In this document: positions 5,909 through 17,193 of the stretch, piece after piece
Layout of the letters: every line of letters begins with the position of its first letter
How positions within the stretch are numbered: position 1 is the first letter of the stretch
Sequence record: NC_049819.1
Source of the DNA: Escherichia phage atuna
DNA length: 50,732 nucleotides
Direction: 5' to 3' (one strand)
Made by a program: the position numbers and the translations under genes
Notes under the pieces: model-generated
Seen by the model: the letters and a program-made list of their open reading frames with translations, nothing else
What the model was told of the DNA's origin: nothing
Database searches by the model: none

Positions 5909-6385
5909 ATGAAAGATGCACGAATTGCAGTATCTACTGGTGAGATCGACAAGCGCACTATTAACGGTAACAACGGAACGCGACGAGGTAAAGACAAAAA
6001 GCCACGAAAACACCGAACCGGATTTCTTATCCTGCGAGATGAGGTAAAAGCAAGCCTGAAATCTCGCCTTGACATTCTGATCGAGTATTACGGCGGTGTT
6101 CCTGCTATGGCCCGACGTCTGCGCGTATCTCAGCAAGTCGTTAACCAGTGGCGAAAGCGTGGTATGATTTCAGCCGCTGGAGCACAAAAGGTGCATAACG
6201 ACTACAAATATAATGGGTGCAAAGGATACCGCGCATCATTTTGTCGTCCAGATCTGCGGTTTGATTCTAACGGCAAGCCTCTTACTACCCGTTGCGACAA
6301 ATACGAAATGTTGCGCGTAGTCAAAAATTCAGACTACGAACCAGGCGGACGATTCTACAAAGGTGATAACAGCACGAATAGCTAA
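5909..6385 (+). CDS. HTH DNA-binding protein (Cro/YdaS-like motif)
   Basis: VPAMARRLRVSQQVVNQWRKRGMIS helix-turn-helix-like segment; SD gagg upstream. Confidence 0.5.
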   Translation: MKDARIAVSTGEIDKRTINGNNGTRRGKDKKPRKHRTGFLILRDEVKASLKSRLDILIEYYGGVPAMARRLRVSQQVVNQWRKRGMISAAGAQKVHNDYKYNGCKGYRASFCRPDLRFDSNGKPLTTRCDKYEMLRVVKNSDYEPGGRFYKGDNSTNS

Positions 6386-6392
6386 TGATAAG

Positions 6393-6428
6393 GCCCAGCG
6401 AAATGATAATATTTGCTGGGCTTTTTTA
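6393..6428 (+). terminator. Hairpin + T-run between HTH gene and primase-like gene
   Basis: gcccagcg...tgctgggc dyad followed by TTTTTTATT, then SD gagg and ATG 6441. Confidence 0.45.
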
Positions 6429-6440
6429 TTGAGGTTTGCC

Positions 6441-7370
6441 ATGAATACTGAAAACTTTATGACCTATCAGAAAGAAGATGTTTTACCATATATGAAGGGG
6501 TTATGGCGTGAAGCACTACAAAGCATTTGCGGACTGCATAGCGATGTTTTCAACAAAAAGCATCAGCCTTGCCCACACTGCGGCGGCAAGGATCGTTTTA
6601 GATGGACTGATAAGCTAAATGAAGAGGGCGACGGCGGCGCTATCTGCAACGTATGCGGTAACGACACGGGGATCGGTTGGTTAATGAAATTAACTGGCGA
6701 ACCTTACAGCGAGGCCATCAATATTTTGGGTCGCTTCCTCGGAAAAGTGCCGCAGGATTACAGGATCAGAGCAAACAAACGCGCTTCGCGTTCTTCTGGT
6801 TACTCGTTCGGGAAACAGGCAAGTCATGAATGCTGCGAAAAAGTGATGGCAAAAACATTAAAATTCGATCGCACACCTTTAAGCGTTTATGAGGGGATAT
6901 ATCCGACGGAAGGTTGTCATTATGATTGCGGCGTCAAGGATGGTCGATACATTCACGCGCTACCTTGTCACTTGGTGCATGATGACGGGCTTGATGATGA
7001 AATGTGTAACGTGCTTTTCATTGATGAGGATGGAAAGGATTGGTTTTTAGCTCGCGACTACACGCGCGGATCTGTTGTTAAAACAGGTAGCACAGATAAG
7101 ACGATCTATTTGTGCCTTGATTGGGTTGATTCCCAGCATGTTCATTTATCAACTGGTCAAGAGGTGTGGGCTTGCTTTACTCCTTCAAATCTTGAAATGG
7201 TTGCGCATAGATATAAAGGAGAAAGAAGAATGCGAGTAGTCTGCCGGAAAGATGATCGTGATGTGATAATCGCGGCAGAGGAAAGAGGTCTTGACATAAT
7301 GATGCCTGTTGACGATAATTTTAAACAGGGCGTAGAAAGAAAACTCTACAAGCCCGAATCACTACTATAA
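6441..7370 (+). CDS. Putative DNA primase-like protein with N-terminal zinc ribbon
   Basis: CPHCGG...CNVCG zinc-ribbon; start moved from 6363 to ATG 6441 (SD gagg; upstream region forms terminator hairpin); position between helicase and tail fibre. Confidence 0.5.
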   Translation: MNTENFMTYQKEDVLPYMKGLWREALQSICGLHSDVFNKKHQPCPHCGGKDRFRWTDKLNEEGDGGAICNVCGNDTGIGWLMKLTGEPYSEAINILGRFLGKVPQDYRIRANKRASRSSGYSFGKQASHECCEKVMAKTLKFDRTPLSVYEGIYPTEGCHYDCGVKDGRYIHALPCHLVHDDGLDDEMCNVLFIDEDGKDWFLARDYTRGSVVKTGSTDKTIYLCLDWVDSQHVHLSTGQEVWACFTPSNLEMVAHRYKGERRMRVVCRKDDRDVIIAAEERGLDIMMPVDDNFKQGVERKLYKPESLL

Positions 7371-7386
7371 AACTCCGCTAGTATTG

Positions 7387-7411
7387 CCCCGCTTATGCGG
7401 GGTTTTTTTTT
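7387..7411 (+). terminator. Rho-independent terminator after primase-like gene
   Basis: ccccgcttatgcgggg stem followed by T9. Confidence 0.75.
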
Positions 7412-7442
7412 GCATTTGAAAATGCTATTATCTGAATTGTCA

Positions 7443-7460
7443 TTAGCAAAAAGTGCTATT
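7443..7460 (-). promoter_or_regulatory. Conserved motif variant (TTAGCAAAAAGTGCTATT on plus) abutting tail-fibre SD; second partial copy at 7416-7430
   Basis: Sequence match to the 3' half of the motif, in inverted orientation relative to the downstream plus-strand gene. Confidence 0.4.
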
Positions 7461-7476
7461 TAGGAGGATTTTACAA

Positions 7477-9687
7477 ATGGCGATTTACAGACAAGGCCAA
7501 GCGTCTATGGACGCTCAAGGTTATGTAACTGGTTACGACACAAAATGGCGCGAGCAATTAACATTGATTCGCCCAGGTGCAACTATTTTCTTTCTTACTC
7601 AACCTTTGCAAGCTGCCGTGATCACAGAGGTGATTAGCGATACAAGCATTCGCGCAATTACTACTGGCGGCGCGGTAGTCCAGAAGACAAATTACCTGAT
7701 CTTGCTTCATGACTCGTTAACGGTTGACGGGCTTGCGCAGGATGTAGCGGAAACTTTGCGTTATTACCAGAGCAAGGAAACAGAAATTGCAGAAGCAATA
7801 GAGTTTTTTAAAGATTTTGATTTGGATGGCTTAAAGGATCTGGTGAATCAAGTTAAGGAATCTGCGCAACAAGTAGCAACAGATCGCGCAGCCACTGAAC
7901 AATTAAAAAATGACACTCAACAGATAAAGGATTCTGCTGTTGCTGAAACAAACCAGATTAAAGCAGACACTGACGCGATCAAAACTCAAACGCAACAGAT
8001 TAAAGATTCAGCTGTAACCGAAACTGAAGCCATTAAACAAGAGGCTTTCGGTGCTCGCGATCAGGCTGAACTGGCGCGTGATGCTGCTGGAAATCATGCC
8101 GTTGATGCAAATAATGCAAAGGCTGGCGCTGAAACTGCGCGTGATGAAGCTCGCCAGTGGGCGCAACAGGTAAATCCTGAAAATCTATTGCATAAGGATC
8201 AGAACCTTAAAGATCTTTCTGACATTGATGAAGCTCGCAGTACTCTTAGCATTGATTCATTTTTTCAGGATTACGTGCATACTATCTTGTACTCTAGAAA
8301 TAGAGAATATAGGCTCGTTATCAGAAATGATGGTCTTCTTGTTTTCCAGAGGGATGTATCAGGGTCTGGGTCATTTGAAACTGTTCCTTTAGCTATTTCT
8401 TCTGGTGGCACTGGAGCTATTGACGCAAATGGCATCAGAAACAATATAGGACTTGGCGAAAAACATGCACCAAAGTTTTTGAGTCTTAATGTTGAAAACG
8501 AAACGGAAAATGCAACTACTGCAAACGCAGGTATATACCATTCAAAACTAAAGAATACACAAGGTGAAGATATTGGATCTTCTCAGTCTTATTTTGAAAC
8601 TCAAGTAGGCGTAGGAAAGCATACAATAGGCGTATTTCATAATGGGGCATCACAGTATTATCAGTTTAATGAAAATGGTGCTTTTTCAGGAGCGAAAAGC
8701 ATTTCCTTAGCTCCTGGGGCTGGTATTTATGTAGATGGGAATGAGCGAAATGCGTCGCAATTGTTTTCAATTCCAAGTCCACCAATCAACACATGGACTG
8801 GTGTAAGTCGTTACAACTGGTATGACGATTACGCTATCGCTGGTTTAATCAGAAGAGGAGATACACACGTTGAATCTTTTGGAATAGAATTGTATCAAGC
8901 AGGGATACAGTCCTATATGCACAAGTTTTACCCTGACGGCAAAACGCATTCTGCTCAATACACCGGAAGAACTCAACAAATGGGGTGGGACGATCCAAAT
9001 TATTGGGGTAATGCTCTTGTTTGGGGTGAGGTTGTAACCAATAATGATGGCGGCTGGAGTCCTGGGTTATCTTGGGCTACACAATCAACTGGTGGATACC
9101 CGATTCGTGCAACTTGGGGTCTTATCGCACAAGGTAATAATGCATGGCCACTTTGTTCTCTAAGGCTTCGTGGTGATGGTGGTTTTTTCTGCAATTTCCA
9201 GTTTAATCCGGCATCAAACGATATAACTACATGGTCATCAAGTGGAAATTTCATTTTCCAAAAGGCAGCTAACTCTGACAGGGATTTAAAGCACGATATA
9301 ATTTATACAGATGGAAAAGAAAGCTATGATCGCGTTATGCAGTGGCTGCCTACCATGTTTAAATACAATGGAAGCAACATCCAGCGATTCGGGATGATAG
9401 CTCAGGATCTGTTAAAAATAGATCCTGAATATGTAAAGCTAATACCTGGAGGGGACATTTTTGCAGATGTTATAGGCGTTAATGATGAAGGTGAAGAATA
9501 TGTGGATCGTCAGATTGTGGTTGACAAAGCAGATGATACACTAGCTCTTGACAATAACGTTATCATGGCTGATATGGCTTGCGCTATGGTCTACATGGGA
9601 AACAAAATTGAGAAAATGGAGAAAGAGATAGAGGATCTAAAAAAAGCGGTAGCGAAATTAATAAACAATCCAACAGATACAGAATAA
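7477..9687 (+). CDS. Tail fibre protein with C-terminal intramolecular chaperone (peptidase S74-like) domain
   Basis: ATG 7477 after AGGAGG; C-terminal [30 protein letters not shown]...[13 protein letters not shown] resembles self-cleaving chaperone domain of T5-type fibres; coiled-coil ending. Confidence 0.75.
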
Positions 9688-9717
9688 AAAAATCCCCGCT
9701 TGTGCGGGGATTTTTAT
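9686..9717. terminator. Bidirectional terminator between convergent tail fibre and ssb genes
   Basis: A7-atccccgcttgtgcggggat-TTTTATT. Confidence 0.75.
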
Positions 9718-9719
9718 TA

Positions 9720-10172
9720 TTAGAAGGGTATATCGTCGTCAAAGTCAATCGGAGGCTGATTGCTTTGCTGTGGTTGCTGTTGAGTATTTTGTTGCTGTTG
9801 CTGTTGTGGTTGCCACCAGCCTCCTTGCGTTCGCTGTTGATATTGTTGCTGGCTTTCCCCACGCTGGCTAAATAGCAAGTTTGCAAATCCGCCAGGCTGC
9901 ACGGTGCTGTAAATCTTTCCGTTGTATTCTCGCGTTTCAACCCGCAAGGTGTCGCAGGAAACAGAAATAACCTTACCAACCTGGAACGCCTCAGCATACC
10001 AACCATTCAGGCCGTCTGTTTTCGCGTTAAAGAAAAATACATAGTTTGTATACTGCCAATTGCCTTCACGGTCTTTATATCGTTCGGAAAGCTCAACAAC
10101 ATATAGCGTGCTGCCGTTAGGCATTTGCTTTACTTTTGGCTCTTTTCGGATCTCACCTGTAATAACGTGCAT
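9720..10172 (-). CDS. ssb: Single-stranded DNA-binding protein
   Basis: Gln/Pro-rich tail ending DFDDDIPF (canonical SSB C-terminus); start at internal Met MHVITG preceded by AGGAG. Confidence 0.85.
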   Translation of the reverse strand: MHVITGEIRKEPKVKQMPNGSTLYVVELSERYKDREGNWQYTNYVFFFNAKTDGLNGWYAEAFQVGKVISVSCDTLRVETREYNGKIYSTVQPGGFANLLFSQRGESQQQYQQRTQGGWWQPQQQQQQNTQQQPQQSNQPPIDFDDDIPF

Positions 10173-10215
10173 TTTGTTTTCTCCTATGACAAAAGGGGCG
10201 CAAGCGCCCCGTTTA

Positions 10216-10884
<669 letters not shown>

Positions 10885-13669: not shown

Positions 13670-13696
13670 TAAAGGGGGCTACGCCCCCTTTTTTTT
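13670..13696. terminator. Bidirectional terminator between convergent genes
   Basis: gggggctacgccccc stem followed by T8 on plus and T/A-rich run on minus. Confidence 0.75.
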
Positions 13697-16600
13697 ACCA
13701 GATTCCGGTAATCCTTCCGACTTCAACCCTCAATACTCCGTTTGCATCTTTTACCTTCAATCCTTCGTTGGTGAATTTAGTAGCTCCCTCTCCTGGAGTT
13801 GAACCGTAGTTTTCAAATGTTCCGTTTTTATCAAGCCTCCAACCTTGCTGATTTTGAACAAAATTGTTTGACTGAATAAAGTTTCCAATCATGGCATTAG
13901 TTATTGAACCATCTTTCACAAGTAAGCTATTGATGAAAACCTGGTTATTCTCAACCACGAAAGGAAGCGTATATGCCCCGCCGCTAGAACTTGTCATGAT
14001 CGCGAATCTGTTAGCGTCAAACAGAATCTGTGATATTAATCCTTGCGGTGATTGCGTTAACTGCATAACCATTCCGGCGCTGTACTGCTGACCGTTATAG
14101 GTTAGGCCCAGCTTCATTGAATATTGAGCACCAACGGAATCAACGCCAGCCCATGAATCAAGTTTTTCAGTAAGTGCCGACTCAAGATCACCAAACTTTG
14201 CCGTTAATGCAGTATCGGCAGAAACGCGCGCCTCTGTTTCGCTTGCAATCGCTTCCTCAACTCTCGTTAACTGCCCCTGTATATCATCACCAATCTGTGA
14301 TTTTAATTCCTCTATAGCTGTTGCTCGCGTTTCTGATTCTGTTGCGATCGCCTGATCAAGTCTTGTTACTTCGCTAGTTATCTCCTCATCAAATTCTGCT
14401 TTTAATTGCGTTAACGCTATCACCCTTGCTTCTGTTTCATCAGCAATCATCTGTATAGATTGCCTAAATTCAGCTTTCCGTTTCCCATTCTCCTTTTTCA
14501 TAACTCTAACATCAGAATCATTTGCCAAAGCGTTCTGAATGATTGATTGCGCCTGGTCTTTGATTTTGTTGGCGCTGTCTATGGCGTTCTCTTTGATTTC
14601 TTGACCAGCTTCGGTATCAAAAATCTTGTCCAGAATGTCGCCTAAAACAGAATCAACATCATCTGACGCCATGCCGCGAACAAAGTCAGTCCAGCCGGAA
14701 ACATTGCCGATCCTGTCAACGCTACGGATTCTATACCATACAACTTGCCCCGCTGGTAACGTGCCATGCCAATACTCATATTGAGGATACGGGATCAGCG
14801 TAAGCAAACTTGAGTTTTCCACCGTTCCATCTGGCGATTGGTGAAGCTCGATGTAAGCCGTATCTCCTGACCCTTCCGGCATACCCCATTTGACACGAAT
14901 GCCAAAAACTTCATTATCAGAAGCTGTAAGATTAATCGGCGCTCCTGGCTCGCCAACTTTACCTGTCAGGGTTGCGGTTGCAATCTTTGACCACGGGGAA
15001 GTGTTACCGCTTGCAGAAACAGATCTAACCCTTACTTGGTAGTTACCAGAATAAATTCCTTCTACCTCTATCTCTTTGTTAGCTGTCTGCGGCGTATTCA
15101 GCCAGTTGCCATCACCTTTTCGCCATTGCATTTCATACAGTGACGCATAAGGCACTTTATCCCACGACACAACCATAGTCTCAACGCTGACACCCTGCAC
15201 GACGCGAGAATAAGATGAGATTTGCACGTTCTCAGGAGCTGCCATTACGTCAGGCTGAACAATTGAAGTCGGCCTGTCATCAATGTTTACTCCATAATCA
15301 ATCTCGTCGTATTTGTTCGGATCGTACTCTACAGCCGTTATTGAATAGGTAAACTCATTTTCGTCATCACCCTTGCTGATAGTTGTCACAACGTATTGCT
15401 GCAACGCAAGGTCAGTACGGTCAATCGCAAAAACAGTATCAGGCTTAACATCAAAACCAAATCCAATATTTAACTCAATGGTTTTTCCGTCTGCGCTCAC
15501 CTTTGAGATCGTTCGCTTAACTGGCTTGCCGTCCGGCTTGTTGATGATAATAAAATCACCAGGACGAGCATCAACCTTAAACGGAACGAAAACCTGCAAT
15601 CCTGAAACTTCCATCACTCGGCCCGATAGGTTTAACGTTAGGTTGCTGCTCTGAAAATTATCAGCGATAGCAATCACATCACCTATTGATGGAATCATCC
15701 CCTCCAGTCCAGTAGCAAAGTTTACAGTAGTGCTTCTAAGGTTTGTTTTCAAAACCCACCGACCGCGACGATTCGCCTCGCTCCTGCGTGTACACCCGAT
15801 CGCTGTAATGCTTGTTGGATTGTATCCAAATCGTAATGCCGCCTCAGTATCAAAAACCCCCTCTACGTCCTGTTGATACATGTTTTGTTCGTCGTCAAAC
15901 GTCACGTTACACTGCGTGTACATGCTTTTTTCGCTTGCGGTTGTGTACTGAAAATCACCGTTGATGACGTTTTCATTAGTAAACACGTATGATGGATCGC
16001 GCGGCTTATCAATCACGATTGATAAGCTCTCACCATTCCAAAAGCTCATTCCGCGAAAGATTGAGCAAATGTCACGGATTAGCTGATAAGCCTCAACCTG
16101 ATTCTGGATCACCACATCGCATAGGTAGCGAGGCTCTGTACCGCCCTTACCGTCTGGAACTTTCTGATCACAGTAAACGCCTGCCTCGTATAAGCTCCAC
16201 TTGTCGATCTGTATTCCTAACTCTCGCTGGTCAAGTCCATAACGCTGATTCGTCACCAGATCATAAAGAACCCATGCAGGATTATTTGACCACGCTTTTT
16301 TAAAAGTCCCATCCCATGACCCGTGATATTCTCTTGATATTGGATCGTAGTTGCTTGGCACATTAATAATCTTCCATTTCTTTTTTATAGAAATGTTAGG
16401 GATTTGTGTAGGAAACAATTCGCTGTCAAATTCTACAAATACAAGGCCAGTCAGAGGATAACGGAATTTTGCATCCACAACCTCAGCGTAACTTTGCAGT
16501 TTGATTTTATCAGTCACCTTTGAAGATGTGCTATCTGGAGTCAGTCGCTTGACTCTGATTAAAACGCGCTCCTCAAACTTAGGAAGATCAATCCTTCTGC

Positions 16601-17120
16601 TGCGGTCATATCCTGATCTTGTCTTGCCATCAATTACATCTCTCATAACCTCGTTATAAGAACCGCCATCAACAGCCATATCTACGGCATATTGAACCCT
16701 TACACCAACAAGATCGCCGTTATCCTCCTGTTTTATGCCAACTGGCATCAGAATCTTGATTCTGATTGCAGAAAGATTTTTATTTGTTACAGAGATAATA
16801 TAGGGATTGTCTGTTGTAATATCTCGCGAAACTGTCACCTCGCTTGATGTGTCAGTAAACCCCTGGATGTAATCTTGCGTCTGTGTGCCTGGCCTATATT
16901 CAGCCGTTACCCCCTCATAGTTAACAGTGCCATCGCTGGCAATAACCGGAACATCATCAAGATAAAGATCACGCAACGTGAAATCTGGATCGCACTCGCC
17001 ATCAGATACAGCCAGCAAAACTTTAATCTTGTTTATCGAGATCAGGTTATCTTCCATCTCTTTTGGCACGTATGGCTTTTTGCTTCCGCCCTTACTGCCG
17101 CTTATCATATATTTAGCCAT
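13695..17120 (-). CDS. Central tail fibre / host-specificity protein (lambda J-like)
   Basis: 1141-aa protein downstream of I-like gene; start at Met MAKYMISG with upstream AAGG; size and position typical of J. Confidence 0.75.
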   Translation of the reverse strand: MAKYMISGSKGGSKKPYVPKEMEDNLISINKIKVLLAVSDGECDPDFTLRDLYLDDVPVIASDGTVNYEGVTAEYRPGTQTQDYIQGFTDTSSEVTVSRDITTDNPYIISVTNKNLSAIRIKILMPVGIKQEDNGDLVGVRVQYAVDMAVDGGSYNEVMRDVIDGKTRSGYDRSRRIDLPKFEERVLIRVKRLTPDSTSSKVTDKIKLQSYAEVVDAKFRYPLTGLVFVEFDSELFPTQIPNISIKKKWKIINVPSNYDPISREYHGSWDGTFKKAWSNNPAWVLYDLVTNQRYGLDQRELGIQIDKWSLYEAGVYCDQKVPDGKGGTEPRYLCDVVIQNQVEAYQLIRDICSIFRGMSFWNGESLSIVIDKPRDPSYVFTNENVINGDFQYTTASEKSMYTQCNVTFDDEQNMYQQDVEGVFDTEAALRFGYNPTSITAIGCTRRSEANRRGRWVLKTNLRSTTVNFATGLEGMIPSIGDVIAIADNFQSSNLTLNLSGRVMEVSGLQVFVPFKVDARPGDFIIINKPDGKPVKRTISKVSADGKTIELNIGFGFDVKPDTVFAIDRTDLALQQYVVTTISKGDDENEFTYSITAVEYDPNKYDEIDYGVNIDDRPTSIVQPDVMAAPENVQISSYSRVVQGVSVETMVVSWDKVPYASLYEMQWRKGDGNWLNTPQTANKEIEVEGIYSGNYQVRVRSVSASGNTSPWSKIATATLTGKVGEPGAPINLTASDNEVFGIRVKWGMPEGSGDTAYIELHQSPDGTVENSSLLTLIPYPQYEYWHGTLPAGQVVWYRIRSVDRIGNVSGWTDFVRGMASDDVDSVLGDILDKIFDTEAGQEIKENAIDSANKIKDQAQSIIQNALANDSDVRVMKKENGKRKAEFRQSIQMIADETEARVIALTQLKAEFDEEITSEVTRLDQAIATESETRATAIEELKSQIGDDIQGQLTRVEEAIASETEARVSADTALTAKFGDLESALTEKLDSWAGVDSVGAQYSMKLGLTYNGQQYSAGMVMQLTQSPQGLISQILFDANRFAIMTSSSGGAYTLPFVVENNQVFINSLLVKDGSITNAMIGNFIQSNNFVQNQQGWRLDKNGTFENYGSTPGEGATKFTNEGLKVKDANGVLRVEVGRITGIW

Positions 17121-17168
17121 GACTTTTAACCTTTTGTGCTGTTTCTTGGTTTGCACATTATAAATGCA

Positions 17169-17193
17169 CAAAAAAACCAGCGCAATGCTGGTT
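17169..17193 (-). terminator. Hairpin + T8 between HNH endonuclease gene and J-like gene
   Basis: accagcattgcgctggt followed by TTTTTTTT on minus strand. Confidence 0.5.

What the first reader, a model, noticed from the sequence alone, without database searches (positions are those of the whole stretch)
7477..9687. Tail fibre with C-terminal self-cleaving chaperone domain and its own inverted motif copy
The C-terminal roughly 130 residues resemble the intramolecular chaperone/peptidase S74 domain that is cleaved off trimeric fibres of T5-type phages. The N-terminal 250 residues are followed by a long heptad-rich coiled-coil. The gene is bracketed by strong terminators on both sides, i.e. a separately regulated receptor-binding module that is a likely host-range determinant.
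Basis: partly seen in the sequence, partly recalled or inferred. Interest (0 to 1): 0.35.

Follow-up and report, generated by a model that had tools for sequence, protein, structure and literature searches.

The report
T1-like phage side tail fibre
This is the already annotated side (lateral) tail fibre gene of the published T1-like coliphage atuna, carrying the well-known self-cleaving C-terminal chaperone domain, so it is a correct but ordinary finding.

Summary
The window is the complete genome of Escherichia phage atuna (MN850620, Drexlerviridae, Warwickvirus). The ORF at 7477-9687 (+) is real and encodes 736 aa. It starts at an ATG behind an AGGAGG ribosome-binding site, and GenBank already annotates it as a tail fibre protein.

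The main claim holds. Residues 600-736 are a Peptidase_S74 intramolecular chaperone domain. This is supported by Pfam (33 bits against a cut-off of 22), by profile hits to solved chaperone domains, and by a predicted fold whose ten best PDB matches are all such domains. The Ser600/Lys605 pair sits in the canonical S-x4-K spacing and is kept in 118 of 120 homologues. Strong terminators do flank the gene.

Two details are wrong. The coiled coil lies inside the first 250 residues (about 118-235) and does not follow them. No "inverted motif copy" exceeds chance.

The receptor-binding part plus chaperone core (nt 8390-9584) is 88% identical in DNA to L-shaped tail fibre genes of some T5-like phages. 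It also occurs in about 60-kb siphophages and in E. coli prophages. This is classic cassette exchange. Self-cleavage, the receptor and separate regulation remain inferences. Interest is low.

The parts
7386..7412 (+). Intrinsic terminator after the primase gene: 7-bp GC stem 7387-7403 followed by T9.
   Evidence: -14.7 kcal/mol, z -4.1. The stem's 3' arm and the T-run are invariant, and the rest nearly so, in 6 Tempevirinae phages. The equivalent site is annotated as a terminator in the phage G29-2 record.
7423..7431 (+). Candidate extended -10 promoter element TGcTATTAT between the terminator and the RBS. This is inference only.
   Evidence: It is the single occurrence in the window (not significant on its own). 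The core TGCTATT is invariant in the 6-phage alignment. No good -35 was found, and the consensus scan reported no promoter here.
7462..7467 (+). Ribosome-binding site AGGAGG, 9 nt before the ATG.
7477..9687 (+). Lateral tail fibre gene: 736 aa, 81.3 kDa precursor.
   Evidence: It is 100% identical to 'tail fiber protein [Escherichia phage atuna]'.
7477..7827 (+). N-terminal virion-attachment (anchor) domain, aa 1-117, conserved across Drexlerviridae.
   Evidence: Query aa 1-182 (anchor plus start of the rod) match the N-terminus of Klebsiella phage GH-K3 depolymerase Depo32 (7VYV/7VZ3) at E 5e-52. Identity is 78-100% in Tempevirinae homologues whatever their distal domain. DNA homology to FritzSarasin stops at 7824.
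7828..8181 (+). Alpha-helical coiled-coil rod, aa 118-235. It contains two 25-aa (75-nt) tandem units starting at about 7915 and 7990.
   Evidence: Composition and heptad scan. Profile hit to the 152-269 segment of T7 gp17, E 3e-6. Direct repeats spaced 75 nt apart. One unit in MikeNSara and three in BubbaBully.
8227..8451 (+). Small beta knob plus conserved GGTGA...RNNIGLGE hinge motif, aa 251-325. This is the 5' junction of the exchanged cassette.
   Evidence: AF2 strands. Weak hit of aa 299-328 to a chain deposited as 'Putative tail fiber', 7z47. High-identity DNA homology with a T5-like fibre gene begins at 8390.
8452..9273 (+). Distal beta-rich receptor-binding domain, aa 326-599. The receptor is unknown.
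   Evidence: All-beta in the AF2 model. No solved relative by sequence profile or fold search. Identity is 76-94% to T5-like and ~60-kb phage fibres and 64-83% to E. coli prophage fibres.
9271..9276 (+). Predicted autoproteolytic site Asn599 | Ser600. Lys605 is at 9289-9291.
   Evidence: [12 protein letters not shown]. The S-x4-K spacing matches Ser1264/Lys1269 of T5 pb1. The motif is present in 118 of 120 homologues.
9274..9684 (+). Intramolecular chaperone / Peptidase_S74 domain, aa 600-736 (15.6 kDa). The terminal helix is about aa 693-730 (9553-9666).
9688..9715 (.). Bidirectional intrinsic terminator shared by the convergent fibre gene (+) and SSB gene (-).
   Evidence: -21.2 and -20.0 kcal/mol. 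A terminator is annotated just after the homologous gene in G29-2.

Best explanation
The gene encodes the lateral (side) tail fibre of a T1-like siphophage.

Proposed mechanism:
1. Three copies of the 81-kDa precursor associate, probably starting at the C-terminal helix of the chaperone domain (aa ~693-730).
2. The chaperone (aa 600-736) templates folding of the intertwined beta-rich receptor-binding domain (aa 326-599).
3. Once the trimer is correctly folded, Ser600, activated by Lys605, cuts the Asn599-Ser600 bond. This releases a 15.6-kDa fragment and leaves a 65.8-kDa mature fibre.
4. The conserved N-terminal domain (aa 1-117) anchors the fibre to the tail. The coiled-coil rod (aa 118-235) acts as a spacer of variable length.
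5. The distal domain makes the first, reversible contact with a surface glycan, probably an O-antigen or another LPS-associated sugar.
6. Irreversible binding is made by the separate central fibre/RBP locus elsewhere in the genome.

The gene sits alone between two intrinsic terminators, in the replication/recombination region. The conserved 5' part on one side, and the chaperone plus 3' flank on the other, act as homology arms. These let the receptor-binding cassette be swapped between phage lineages.

Shown here: gene, domains, motifs, terminators, mosaic homology.
Inferred: trimerisation, cleavage, receptor class, own promoter.
For: - Identity: 100% match to the atuna tail fibre protein on a 50,732-bp contig. 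Atuna is listed as a 50,732-bp Warwickvirus, MN850620.
- Fibre nature: PHROG tail-fibre families at E 4.5e-190. The locus lies between primase and SSB, exactly as for 'lateral tail fiber protein' in BASEL phages FritzSarasin and PeterMerian and as described for the family.
- Chaperone, sequence evidence: Pfam PF13884 at 33 bits against a cut-off of 22, covering the full 58-position model. Profile hits to S16 gp37 (6f45, E 3.9e-9), the 'L-shaped tail fiber assembly' chain of 8hqz (E 3.8e-8) and the MyRF ICA domain (7dc3).
- Chaperone, fold evidence: AF2 model with pLDDT 83. Its 10 best PDB matches are 3GW6, 7DC3 and 4UW8 at probability 0.96-1.00, followed by a sharp drop.
- Catalytic motif: S600-DRDL-K605 is conserved in 118 of 120 homologues and matches the Ser1264/Lys1269 mechanism shown experimentally for T5 pb1.
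- No separate assembly chaperone gene is adjacent.
- Terminators.
- Cassette exchange.
Against: - There are no experimental data for atuna on cleavage, trimerisation or receptor.
- The model of residues 236-736 (hinge, receptor-binding domain and chaperone) was only moderate (pLDDT 68, pTM 0.33) and found no structural relative. Its fold and ligand are therefore unknown.
- Foldseek E-values for the chaperone model are only about 1e-3, with TM 0.34-0.45. A monomer model of a trimeric domain is an imperfect test.
- No consensus sigma-70 promoter was found between the upstream terminator and the gene. Independent regulation is therefore unproven; expression could depend on read-through.
- The phage was isolated on K-12 MG1655, which lacks O-antigen. 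The fibre may be dispensable on that host.
Confidence: 0.88

Rival explanations
1. The S74 domain is present but is not cleaved. The full-length 81-kDa protein is the functional virion component, and the chaperone stays as a distal cap.
For: Cleavage was not observed here. One metagenomic homologue (P0040) has Cys in place of the nucleophilic Ser, which shows the position can vary.
Against: Ser and Lys sit in the canonical spacing and are kept in 118 of 120 homologues across four phage lineages. In T5 the uncleaved form does not compete for the receptor, and the authors propose that cleavage unmasks the binding site.
Confidence: 0.06
2. The protein is an enzymatic tailspike (polysaccharide depolymerase) rather than a purely binding fibre.
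For: Its N-terminal 182 residues are homologous to those of the Klebsiella phage depolymerase Depo32. S74 chaperones were first described on endosialidase tailspikes.
Against: The similarity to Depo32 ends at about residue 182, so it covers only the anchor and the start of the rod. No Pfam, PDB-profile or fold hit to a beta-helix or any glycosidase/lyase/esterase domain was found in residues 250-599. The closest full relatives are the L-shaped fibres of T5-like phages.
Confidence: 0.05
3. It is the terminal (irreversible) receptor-binding protein that decides infection of K-12, not an accessory lateral fibre.
For: It is the only gene in the window with a recognisable distal receptor-binding architecture that I analysed in detail.
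Against: The family's terminal receptor specificity maps to the locus downstream of the gpJ homologue. In this window that is a separate large minus-strand tail gene (13695-17171; 'tail protein' in MikeNSara). The lateral fibre locus is hypervariable between otherwise near-identical phages that share K-12 as host.
Confidence: 0.02

Closest known systems
Lateral tail fibres of Drexlerviridae (e.g. BASEL phages FritzSarasin Bas04 and PeterMerian Bas05; MikeNSara; slyngel; G29-2)
   Same: Same locus between primase and SSB. Same conserved N-terminal anchor. Same flanking terminators. Same C-terminal S74 chaperone. MikeNSara is 96% identical in DNA and 92% in protein.
   Different: Only allelic differences. 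Atuna has two 25-aa rod repeats against one in MikeNSara. FritzSarasin carries a different receptor-binding domain between aa ~118 and ~591.
L-shaped tail fibres of T5-like phages (Tequintavirus MM-1, T5_ev212, phiLLS, OSYSP, VEc33)
   Same: The receptor-binding domain and chaperone core are 89-97% identical in protein and 88% in DNA over window 8390-9584. These fibres also carry the hinge/knob module, with a second copy of it.
   Different: The N-terminal attachment region is unrelated, and the rod is much longer in the T5-like proteins (922-933 aa). The last ~33 residues, the terminal chaperone helix, are only ~48% identical.
Phage T5 pb1 C-terminal domain with its intramolecular chaperone (PDB 4UW7/4UW8)
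   Same: Same chaperone fold by Foldseek (probability 1.00). Same Ser...Lys catalytic spacing. Same position at the C-terminus of a fibre.
   Different: No detectable sequence similarity between the atuna receptor-binding domain and the pb1 'bullet' domain. Chaperone identity is only ~12-13%.
Endosialidase (endoNF, phage K1F) C-terminal intramolecular chaperone, PDB 3GW6; Pfam PF13884 / MEROPS S74
   Same: This is the founding member of the domain family matched here.
   Different: In K1F the chaperone serves an enzymatic tailspike. Here it follows a non-enzymatic-looking beta domain.
Klebsiella phage GH-K3 depolymerase Depo32 (PDB 7VYV/7VZ3)
   Same: Homologous N-terminal anchor and start of the helical neck, aa 1-182, E ~5e-52.
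   Different: The similarity ends at about residue 182. Nothing in Depo32 matches atuna residues 183-736, including the S74 chaperone.

Membership tests
Peptidase_S74 / intramolecular chaperone (IMC) domain (Pfam PF13884) | Profile match above the curated Pfam gathering score | tested here: met
   33.0 bits against a cut-off of 22, aa 600-654, model positions 1-58 of 58. PF13884 is precomputed for nearly all homologues.
Peptidase_S74 / intramolecular chaperone (IMC) domain (Pfam PF13884) | Nucleophilic Ser at the domain start with the activating Lys five residues downstream (S-x4-K) | tested here: met
   S600-D-R-D-L-K605. Conserved in 118 of 120 homologues. Same spacing as Ser1264/Lys1269 of T5 pb1.
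Peptidase_S74 / intramolecular chaperone (IMC) domain (Pfam PF13884) | Fold of solved IMC domains: alpha/beta part, beta-hairpin 'tentacle', long C-terminal helix | tested here: met
   AF2 model with pLDDT 83, a long beta-hairpin (E73-81/E87-97) and helix 106-143. Foldseek top 10 are all 3GW6, 7DC3 or 4UW8 at probability 0.96-1.00. E-values are only ~1e-3 and TM 0.34-0.45, because a monomer was modelled.
Peptidase_S74 / intramolecular chaperone (IMC) domain (Pfam PF13884) | Located at the extreme C-terminus of a trimeric fibre or spike | tested here: met
   It forms the last 137 residues of a PHROG tail-fibre protein. Trimer formation itself was not testable.
Peptidase_S74 / intramolecular chaperone (IMC) domain (Pfam PF13884) | Autoproteolytic release after folding; Arg 'folding sensor' from the neighbouring chain | not testable with these tools
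   This needs a trimer structure or biochemistry. The mechanism is taken from T5 pb1 and endoNF.
Drexlerviridae lateral tail fibre | Encoded between the primase and the recombination/SSB genes, away from the main tail module | tested here: met
   Primase ORF 6363-7370 (annotated start corresponds to about 6441), fibre 7477-9687, then SSB, Erf and exonuclease on the minus strand.
Drexlerviridae lateral tail fibre | Conserved far-N-terminal attachment domain with a hypervariable remainder | tested here: met
   The anchor is 78-100% identical across Tempevirinae homologues, while the RBD ranges from no match to 96%.
T5-type L-shaped tail fibre (pb1/LtfA) | N-terminal region that attaches to the T5 collar protein | tested here: not met
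   No similarity between atuna aa 1-130 and the T5-like fibres P0033-P0039. Only the distal cassette is shared, so this is not a pb1 orthologue.
T5-type L-shaped tail fibre (pb1/LtfA) | Distal receptor-binding domain homologous to a T5-like fibre allele | tested here: met
   89-94% protein identity over aa 326-599 to Tequintavirus fibres, and 88% DNA identity. There is no match to the T5 pb1 bullet domain itself.

The most novel reading that the evidence does not exclude
The distal domain (aa 326-599) has no solved relative by sequence profile or by fold search. The same domain-plus-chaperone cassette circulates at about 64-97% identity among four unrelated groups: Drexlerviridae, T5-like Demerecviridae, ~60-kb siphophages with a lambda-Stf-type N-terminus, and E. 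coli prophages. It could therefore be a new receptor-binding fold that recognises a common, still unidentified enterobacterial glycan. Its exchange junctions may be fixed at the GGTGA hinge motif and inside the chaperone domain, so that the cleaved-off chaperone doubles as a recombination arm.
Probability: 0.25. Interest if true: 0.3.

Novelty: already known. Interest (0 to 1): 0.1.

Why it matters
For annotation it matters little. The gene is already called a tail fibre in GenBank, and its homologues are flagged as Peptidase S74 proteins. Practically, the precise module map (anchor, rod, hinge, RBD, chaperone) and the observed junctions give ready-made splice points for engineering host range in T1-like and T5-like phages. 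The junctions are at nt ~7824, ~8390, ~9249 and ~9584. The receptor of this widely shared RBD allele is still unknown.

Tried and rejected
1. Fold search of an AF2 model of residues 236-736 (pLDDT 68, pTM 0.33) against the PDB gave only noise. Hits were beta-propellers, all at TM about 0.1 and E > 0.001. A monomer model of an intertwined trimer is not informative, so the RBD fold is left open.
2. A PDB sequence search with the single protein and with a 40-sequence profile found no relative for residues 330-599.
3. I looked for the 'inverted motif copy'. The candidate is 7449-7463 against 9868-9882 (15 nt, 87%). That and six other short inverted repeats are no more than shuffles give, so I rejected it as chance.
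4. I looked for a sigma-70 promoter between the upstream terminator and the gene. The consensus scan found none. Only an extended -10-like TGcTATTAT is conserved. I kept this as a weak inference, not a finding.
5. The weak Pfam hits (GW, Spectrin, HCS_D2) are all far below their cut-offs and were ignored.
6. The upstream GTG at 7453 as start codon was rejected. It overlaps the RBS region, and all homologues start at MAIYR.

Full report
**What the window is.** The 736-aa product of 7477-9684 is 100% identical to 'tail fiber protein [Escherichia phage atuna]', found on a contig of exactly 50,732 bp. Olsen et al. 2020 list atuna (MN850620) as a 50,732-bp Warwickvirus (Drexlerviridae) isolated on E. 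coli K-12 MG1655. They already point to the putative tail fibre/tail-spike gene as the most variable gene of the genus. The nearest deposited genome, MikeNSara, is 96% identical across the region. It annotates the same order: transcriptional regulator, DNA primase, tail fiber protein, then SSB, Erf and exonuclease on the opposite strand.

**Check of the observation.**
- The ORF is real.
- The terminators are real. GCCCCGC-TTAT-GCGGGGT followed by T9 lies at 7386-7412 (-14.7 kcal/mol, z -4.1). A perfect 12-bp palindrome lies at 9688-9715, one base after the stop codon. It folds equally well on both strands (-21.2 and -20.0 kcal/mol, z about -7) and serves the convergent SSB gene as well.
- The upstream hairpin's 3' arm and T-run are invariant, and the rest nearly so, in six Tempevirinae phages. 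Terminators on both sides of the homologous gene are already annotated in the G29-2 record. T1-like genomes have been described as sets of terminator-flanked 'transcriptons'.
- Two details fail. The helix-rich, heptad-like region is residues ~95-235, inside the first 250 residues and not after them. From 250 to 599 the protein is beta-rich.
- Nothing corresponds to an 'inverted motif copy'. Apart from the terminator hairpin, the inverted repeats in the region are 12-15 nt, mostly imperfect arms, at a frequency within shuffles.

**Anatomy.**
1. Residues 1-117 are the anchor. Residues 1-182 as a whole (anchor plus start of the rod) match the N-terminus of Klebsiella phage GH-K3 depolymerase Depo32 (7VYV/7VZ3) at E ~5e-52. 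The anchor is 78-100% identical in Tempevirinae fibres whatever their distal part.
2. Residues 118-235 are an alpha-helical rod. It matches the 152-269 segment of T7 gp17 at E 3e-6. It contains a 25-aa (75-nt) unit present twice here, once in MikeNSara and three times in BubbaBully.
3. Residues 251-325 are a small beta knob ending in the conserved GGTGA...RNNIGLGE hinge.
4. Residues 326-599 are an all-beta distal domain with no solved relative.
5. Residues 600-736 are the intramolecular chaperone.

**The chaperone domain.** Four independent lines agree.
- Pfam Peptidase_S74 scores 33 bits against a cut-off of 22 and covers the whole model.
- A profile of 18 diverse C-termini hits the chaperone-bearing C-termini of phage S16 gp37 (6f45, E 3.9e-9), the 1076-aa 'L-shaped tail fiber assembly' chain of 8hqz (E 3.8e-8), and the MyRF ICA domain (7dc3, E 0.0045).
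- An AF2 model of residues 588-736 (pLDDT 83) shows the alpha/beta part, a long hairpin and a 38-residue terminal helix. Its ten best PDB matches are exclusively endoNF 3GW6, MyRF 7DC3 and T5 pb1 4UW8, at probability 0.96-1.00. The next hit falls to E 0.56.
- The motif AAN|S600-DRDL-K605 has the same Ser-x4-Lys spacing as Ser1264/Lys1269 of T5 pb1, where S1264A blocks cleavage. It is present in 118 of 120 homologues.

Predicted products are a 65.8-kDa mature fibre and a 15.6-kDa released chaperone. No separate fibre-assembly gene is adjacent. Cleavage itself is inferred, not shown.

**Mosaic structure.** Segment-wise comparison of 120 homologues shows that the anchor and the last ~36 residues follow phage lineage, while the RBD and chaperone core travel together.

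| Compared with | Shared region | Identity |
|---|---|---|
| T5-like Tequintavirus L-shaped fibres | RBD + chaperone core | 89-97% protein |
| 826-849-aa fibres with a PF08400 N-terminus on ~60-kb contigs | RBD + chaperone core | 76-98% protein |
| ~814-aa E. coli prophage fibres (580-817 aa) | RBD + chaperone core | 64-94% protein |

At DNA level:
- The T5-like phage MM-1 matches window 8390-9584 at 88%.
- FritzSarasin (same genus, different RBD) matches only 7300-7824 and 9249-10206, apart from a 37-nt rod stretch.
- G29-2 (Hanrivervirus, same RBD) matches through 9642.

In MM-1 the homologous gene sits after the collar protein 'for L-shaped tail fiber attachment'. This is the modular exchange already described for lateral fibres of these families. 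The hinge motif and the chaperone/3' flank look like the recombination arms. That last point is my inference.

**Function.** By homology and by the published view of the family, the fibre makes the first reversible contact with a surface glycan. The terminal receptor is read by the gpJ/RBP locus, which lies elsewhere in this window (13695-17171 minus strand). The fibre is therefore a host-range determinant for O-antigen-bearing hosts and is probably dispensable on K-12. The receptor of this allele is unknown.

Separate regulation is plausible from the terminator bracketing. However, I found no consensus promoter, only a conserved extended -10-like TGcTATTAT at 7423-7431.

**Verdict.** The feature is nonetheless an already annotated gene of a published phage, of a well-understood kind. 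Novelty: already known. Interest: low.

Noticed in passing
window 7915-8064 (aa 147-196): A 75-nt / 25-aa unit ([12 protein letters not shown]...AIKxQ) in the coiled-coil rod is present twice in atuna, once in MikeNSara and three times in BubbaBully. Rod length apparently varies by unequal recombination between direct repeats.
   Followed up: yes
homologue P0040 (827 aa, metagenomic contig of 6,968 bp): It carries Cys instead of the nucleophilic Ser at the chaperone cleavage site (AAN-CDRDLK). This is the only such case among 120 homologues. It could be a sequencing error or a Cys-nucleophile variant.
   Followed up: partly
window 9585-9687 (aa 704-736) and the 3' flank: The last ~33 residues of the chaperone (terminal helix and NNPTDTE tail) follow phage genus, not the RBD allele. 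They are 89-100% identical in Warwickvirus-type fibres (anchor 97-100% identical), including ones with a different RBD (89%), but only 45-50% identical in the T5-like and ~60-kb phage fibres with the same RBD (36-39% in the prophage fibres). This suggests a recombination junction inside the cleaved-off domain.
   Followed up: yes
search hits H6-H10 and H49-H52 (MG0656xx records): Nineteen unannotated 47-50-kb records named 'Campylobacter phage' (host C. jejuni) are 75-85% identical to this E. coli T1-like region. They look like Drexlerviridae coliphages and may be mislabelled or contaminants.
   Followed up: no
homologue P0046 ('Aeromonas phage SD04', 59.6-kb contig): It has a lambda-Stf-type N-terminus (PF08400) fused to the same RBD-chaperone cassette, at 81% and 98% identity respectively. 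That is surprising for an Aeromonas host and suggests an enterobacterial host or very recent transfer.
   Followed up: no
homologue P0090 (Shigella phage 2019SD1, 'UNVERIFIED_ASMBLY'): The tail-fibre protein in this record is a scrambled concatenation of duplicated anchor and rod pieces without a chaperone domain. It is most likely a misassembly.
   Followed up: no
window 9720-10223 (-): The ORF in the position of MikeNSara's annotated SSB gene, convergent with the fibre gene, has a long Gln-rich linker (QQQYQQ...QQQQQQNTQQQPQQ) before a C-terminal DFDDDIPF tail. The direct repeats seen at 9757-9804 lie in this Gln-coding stretch.
   Followed up: no
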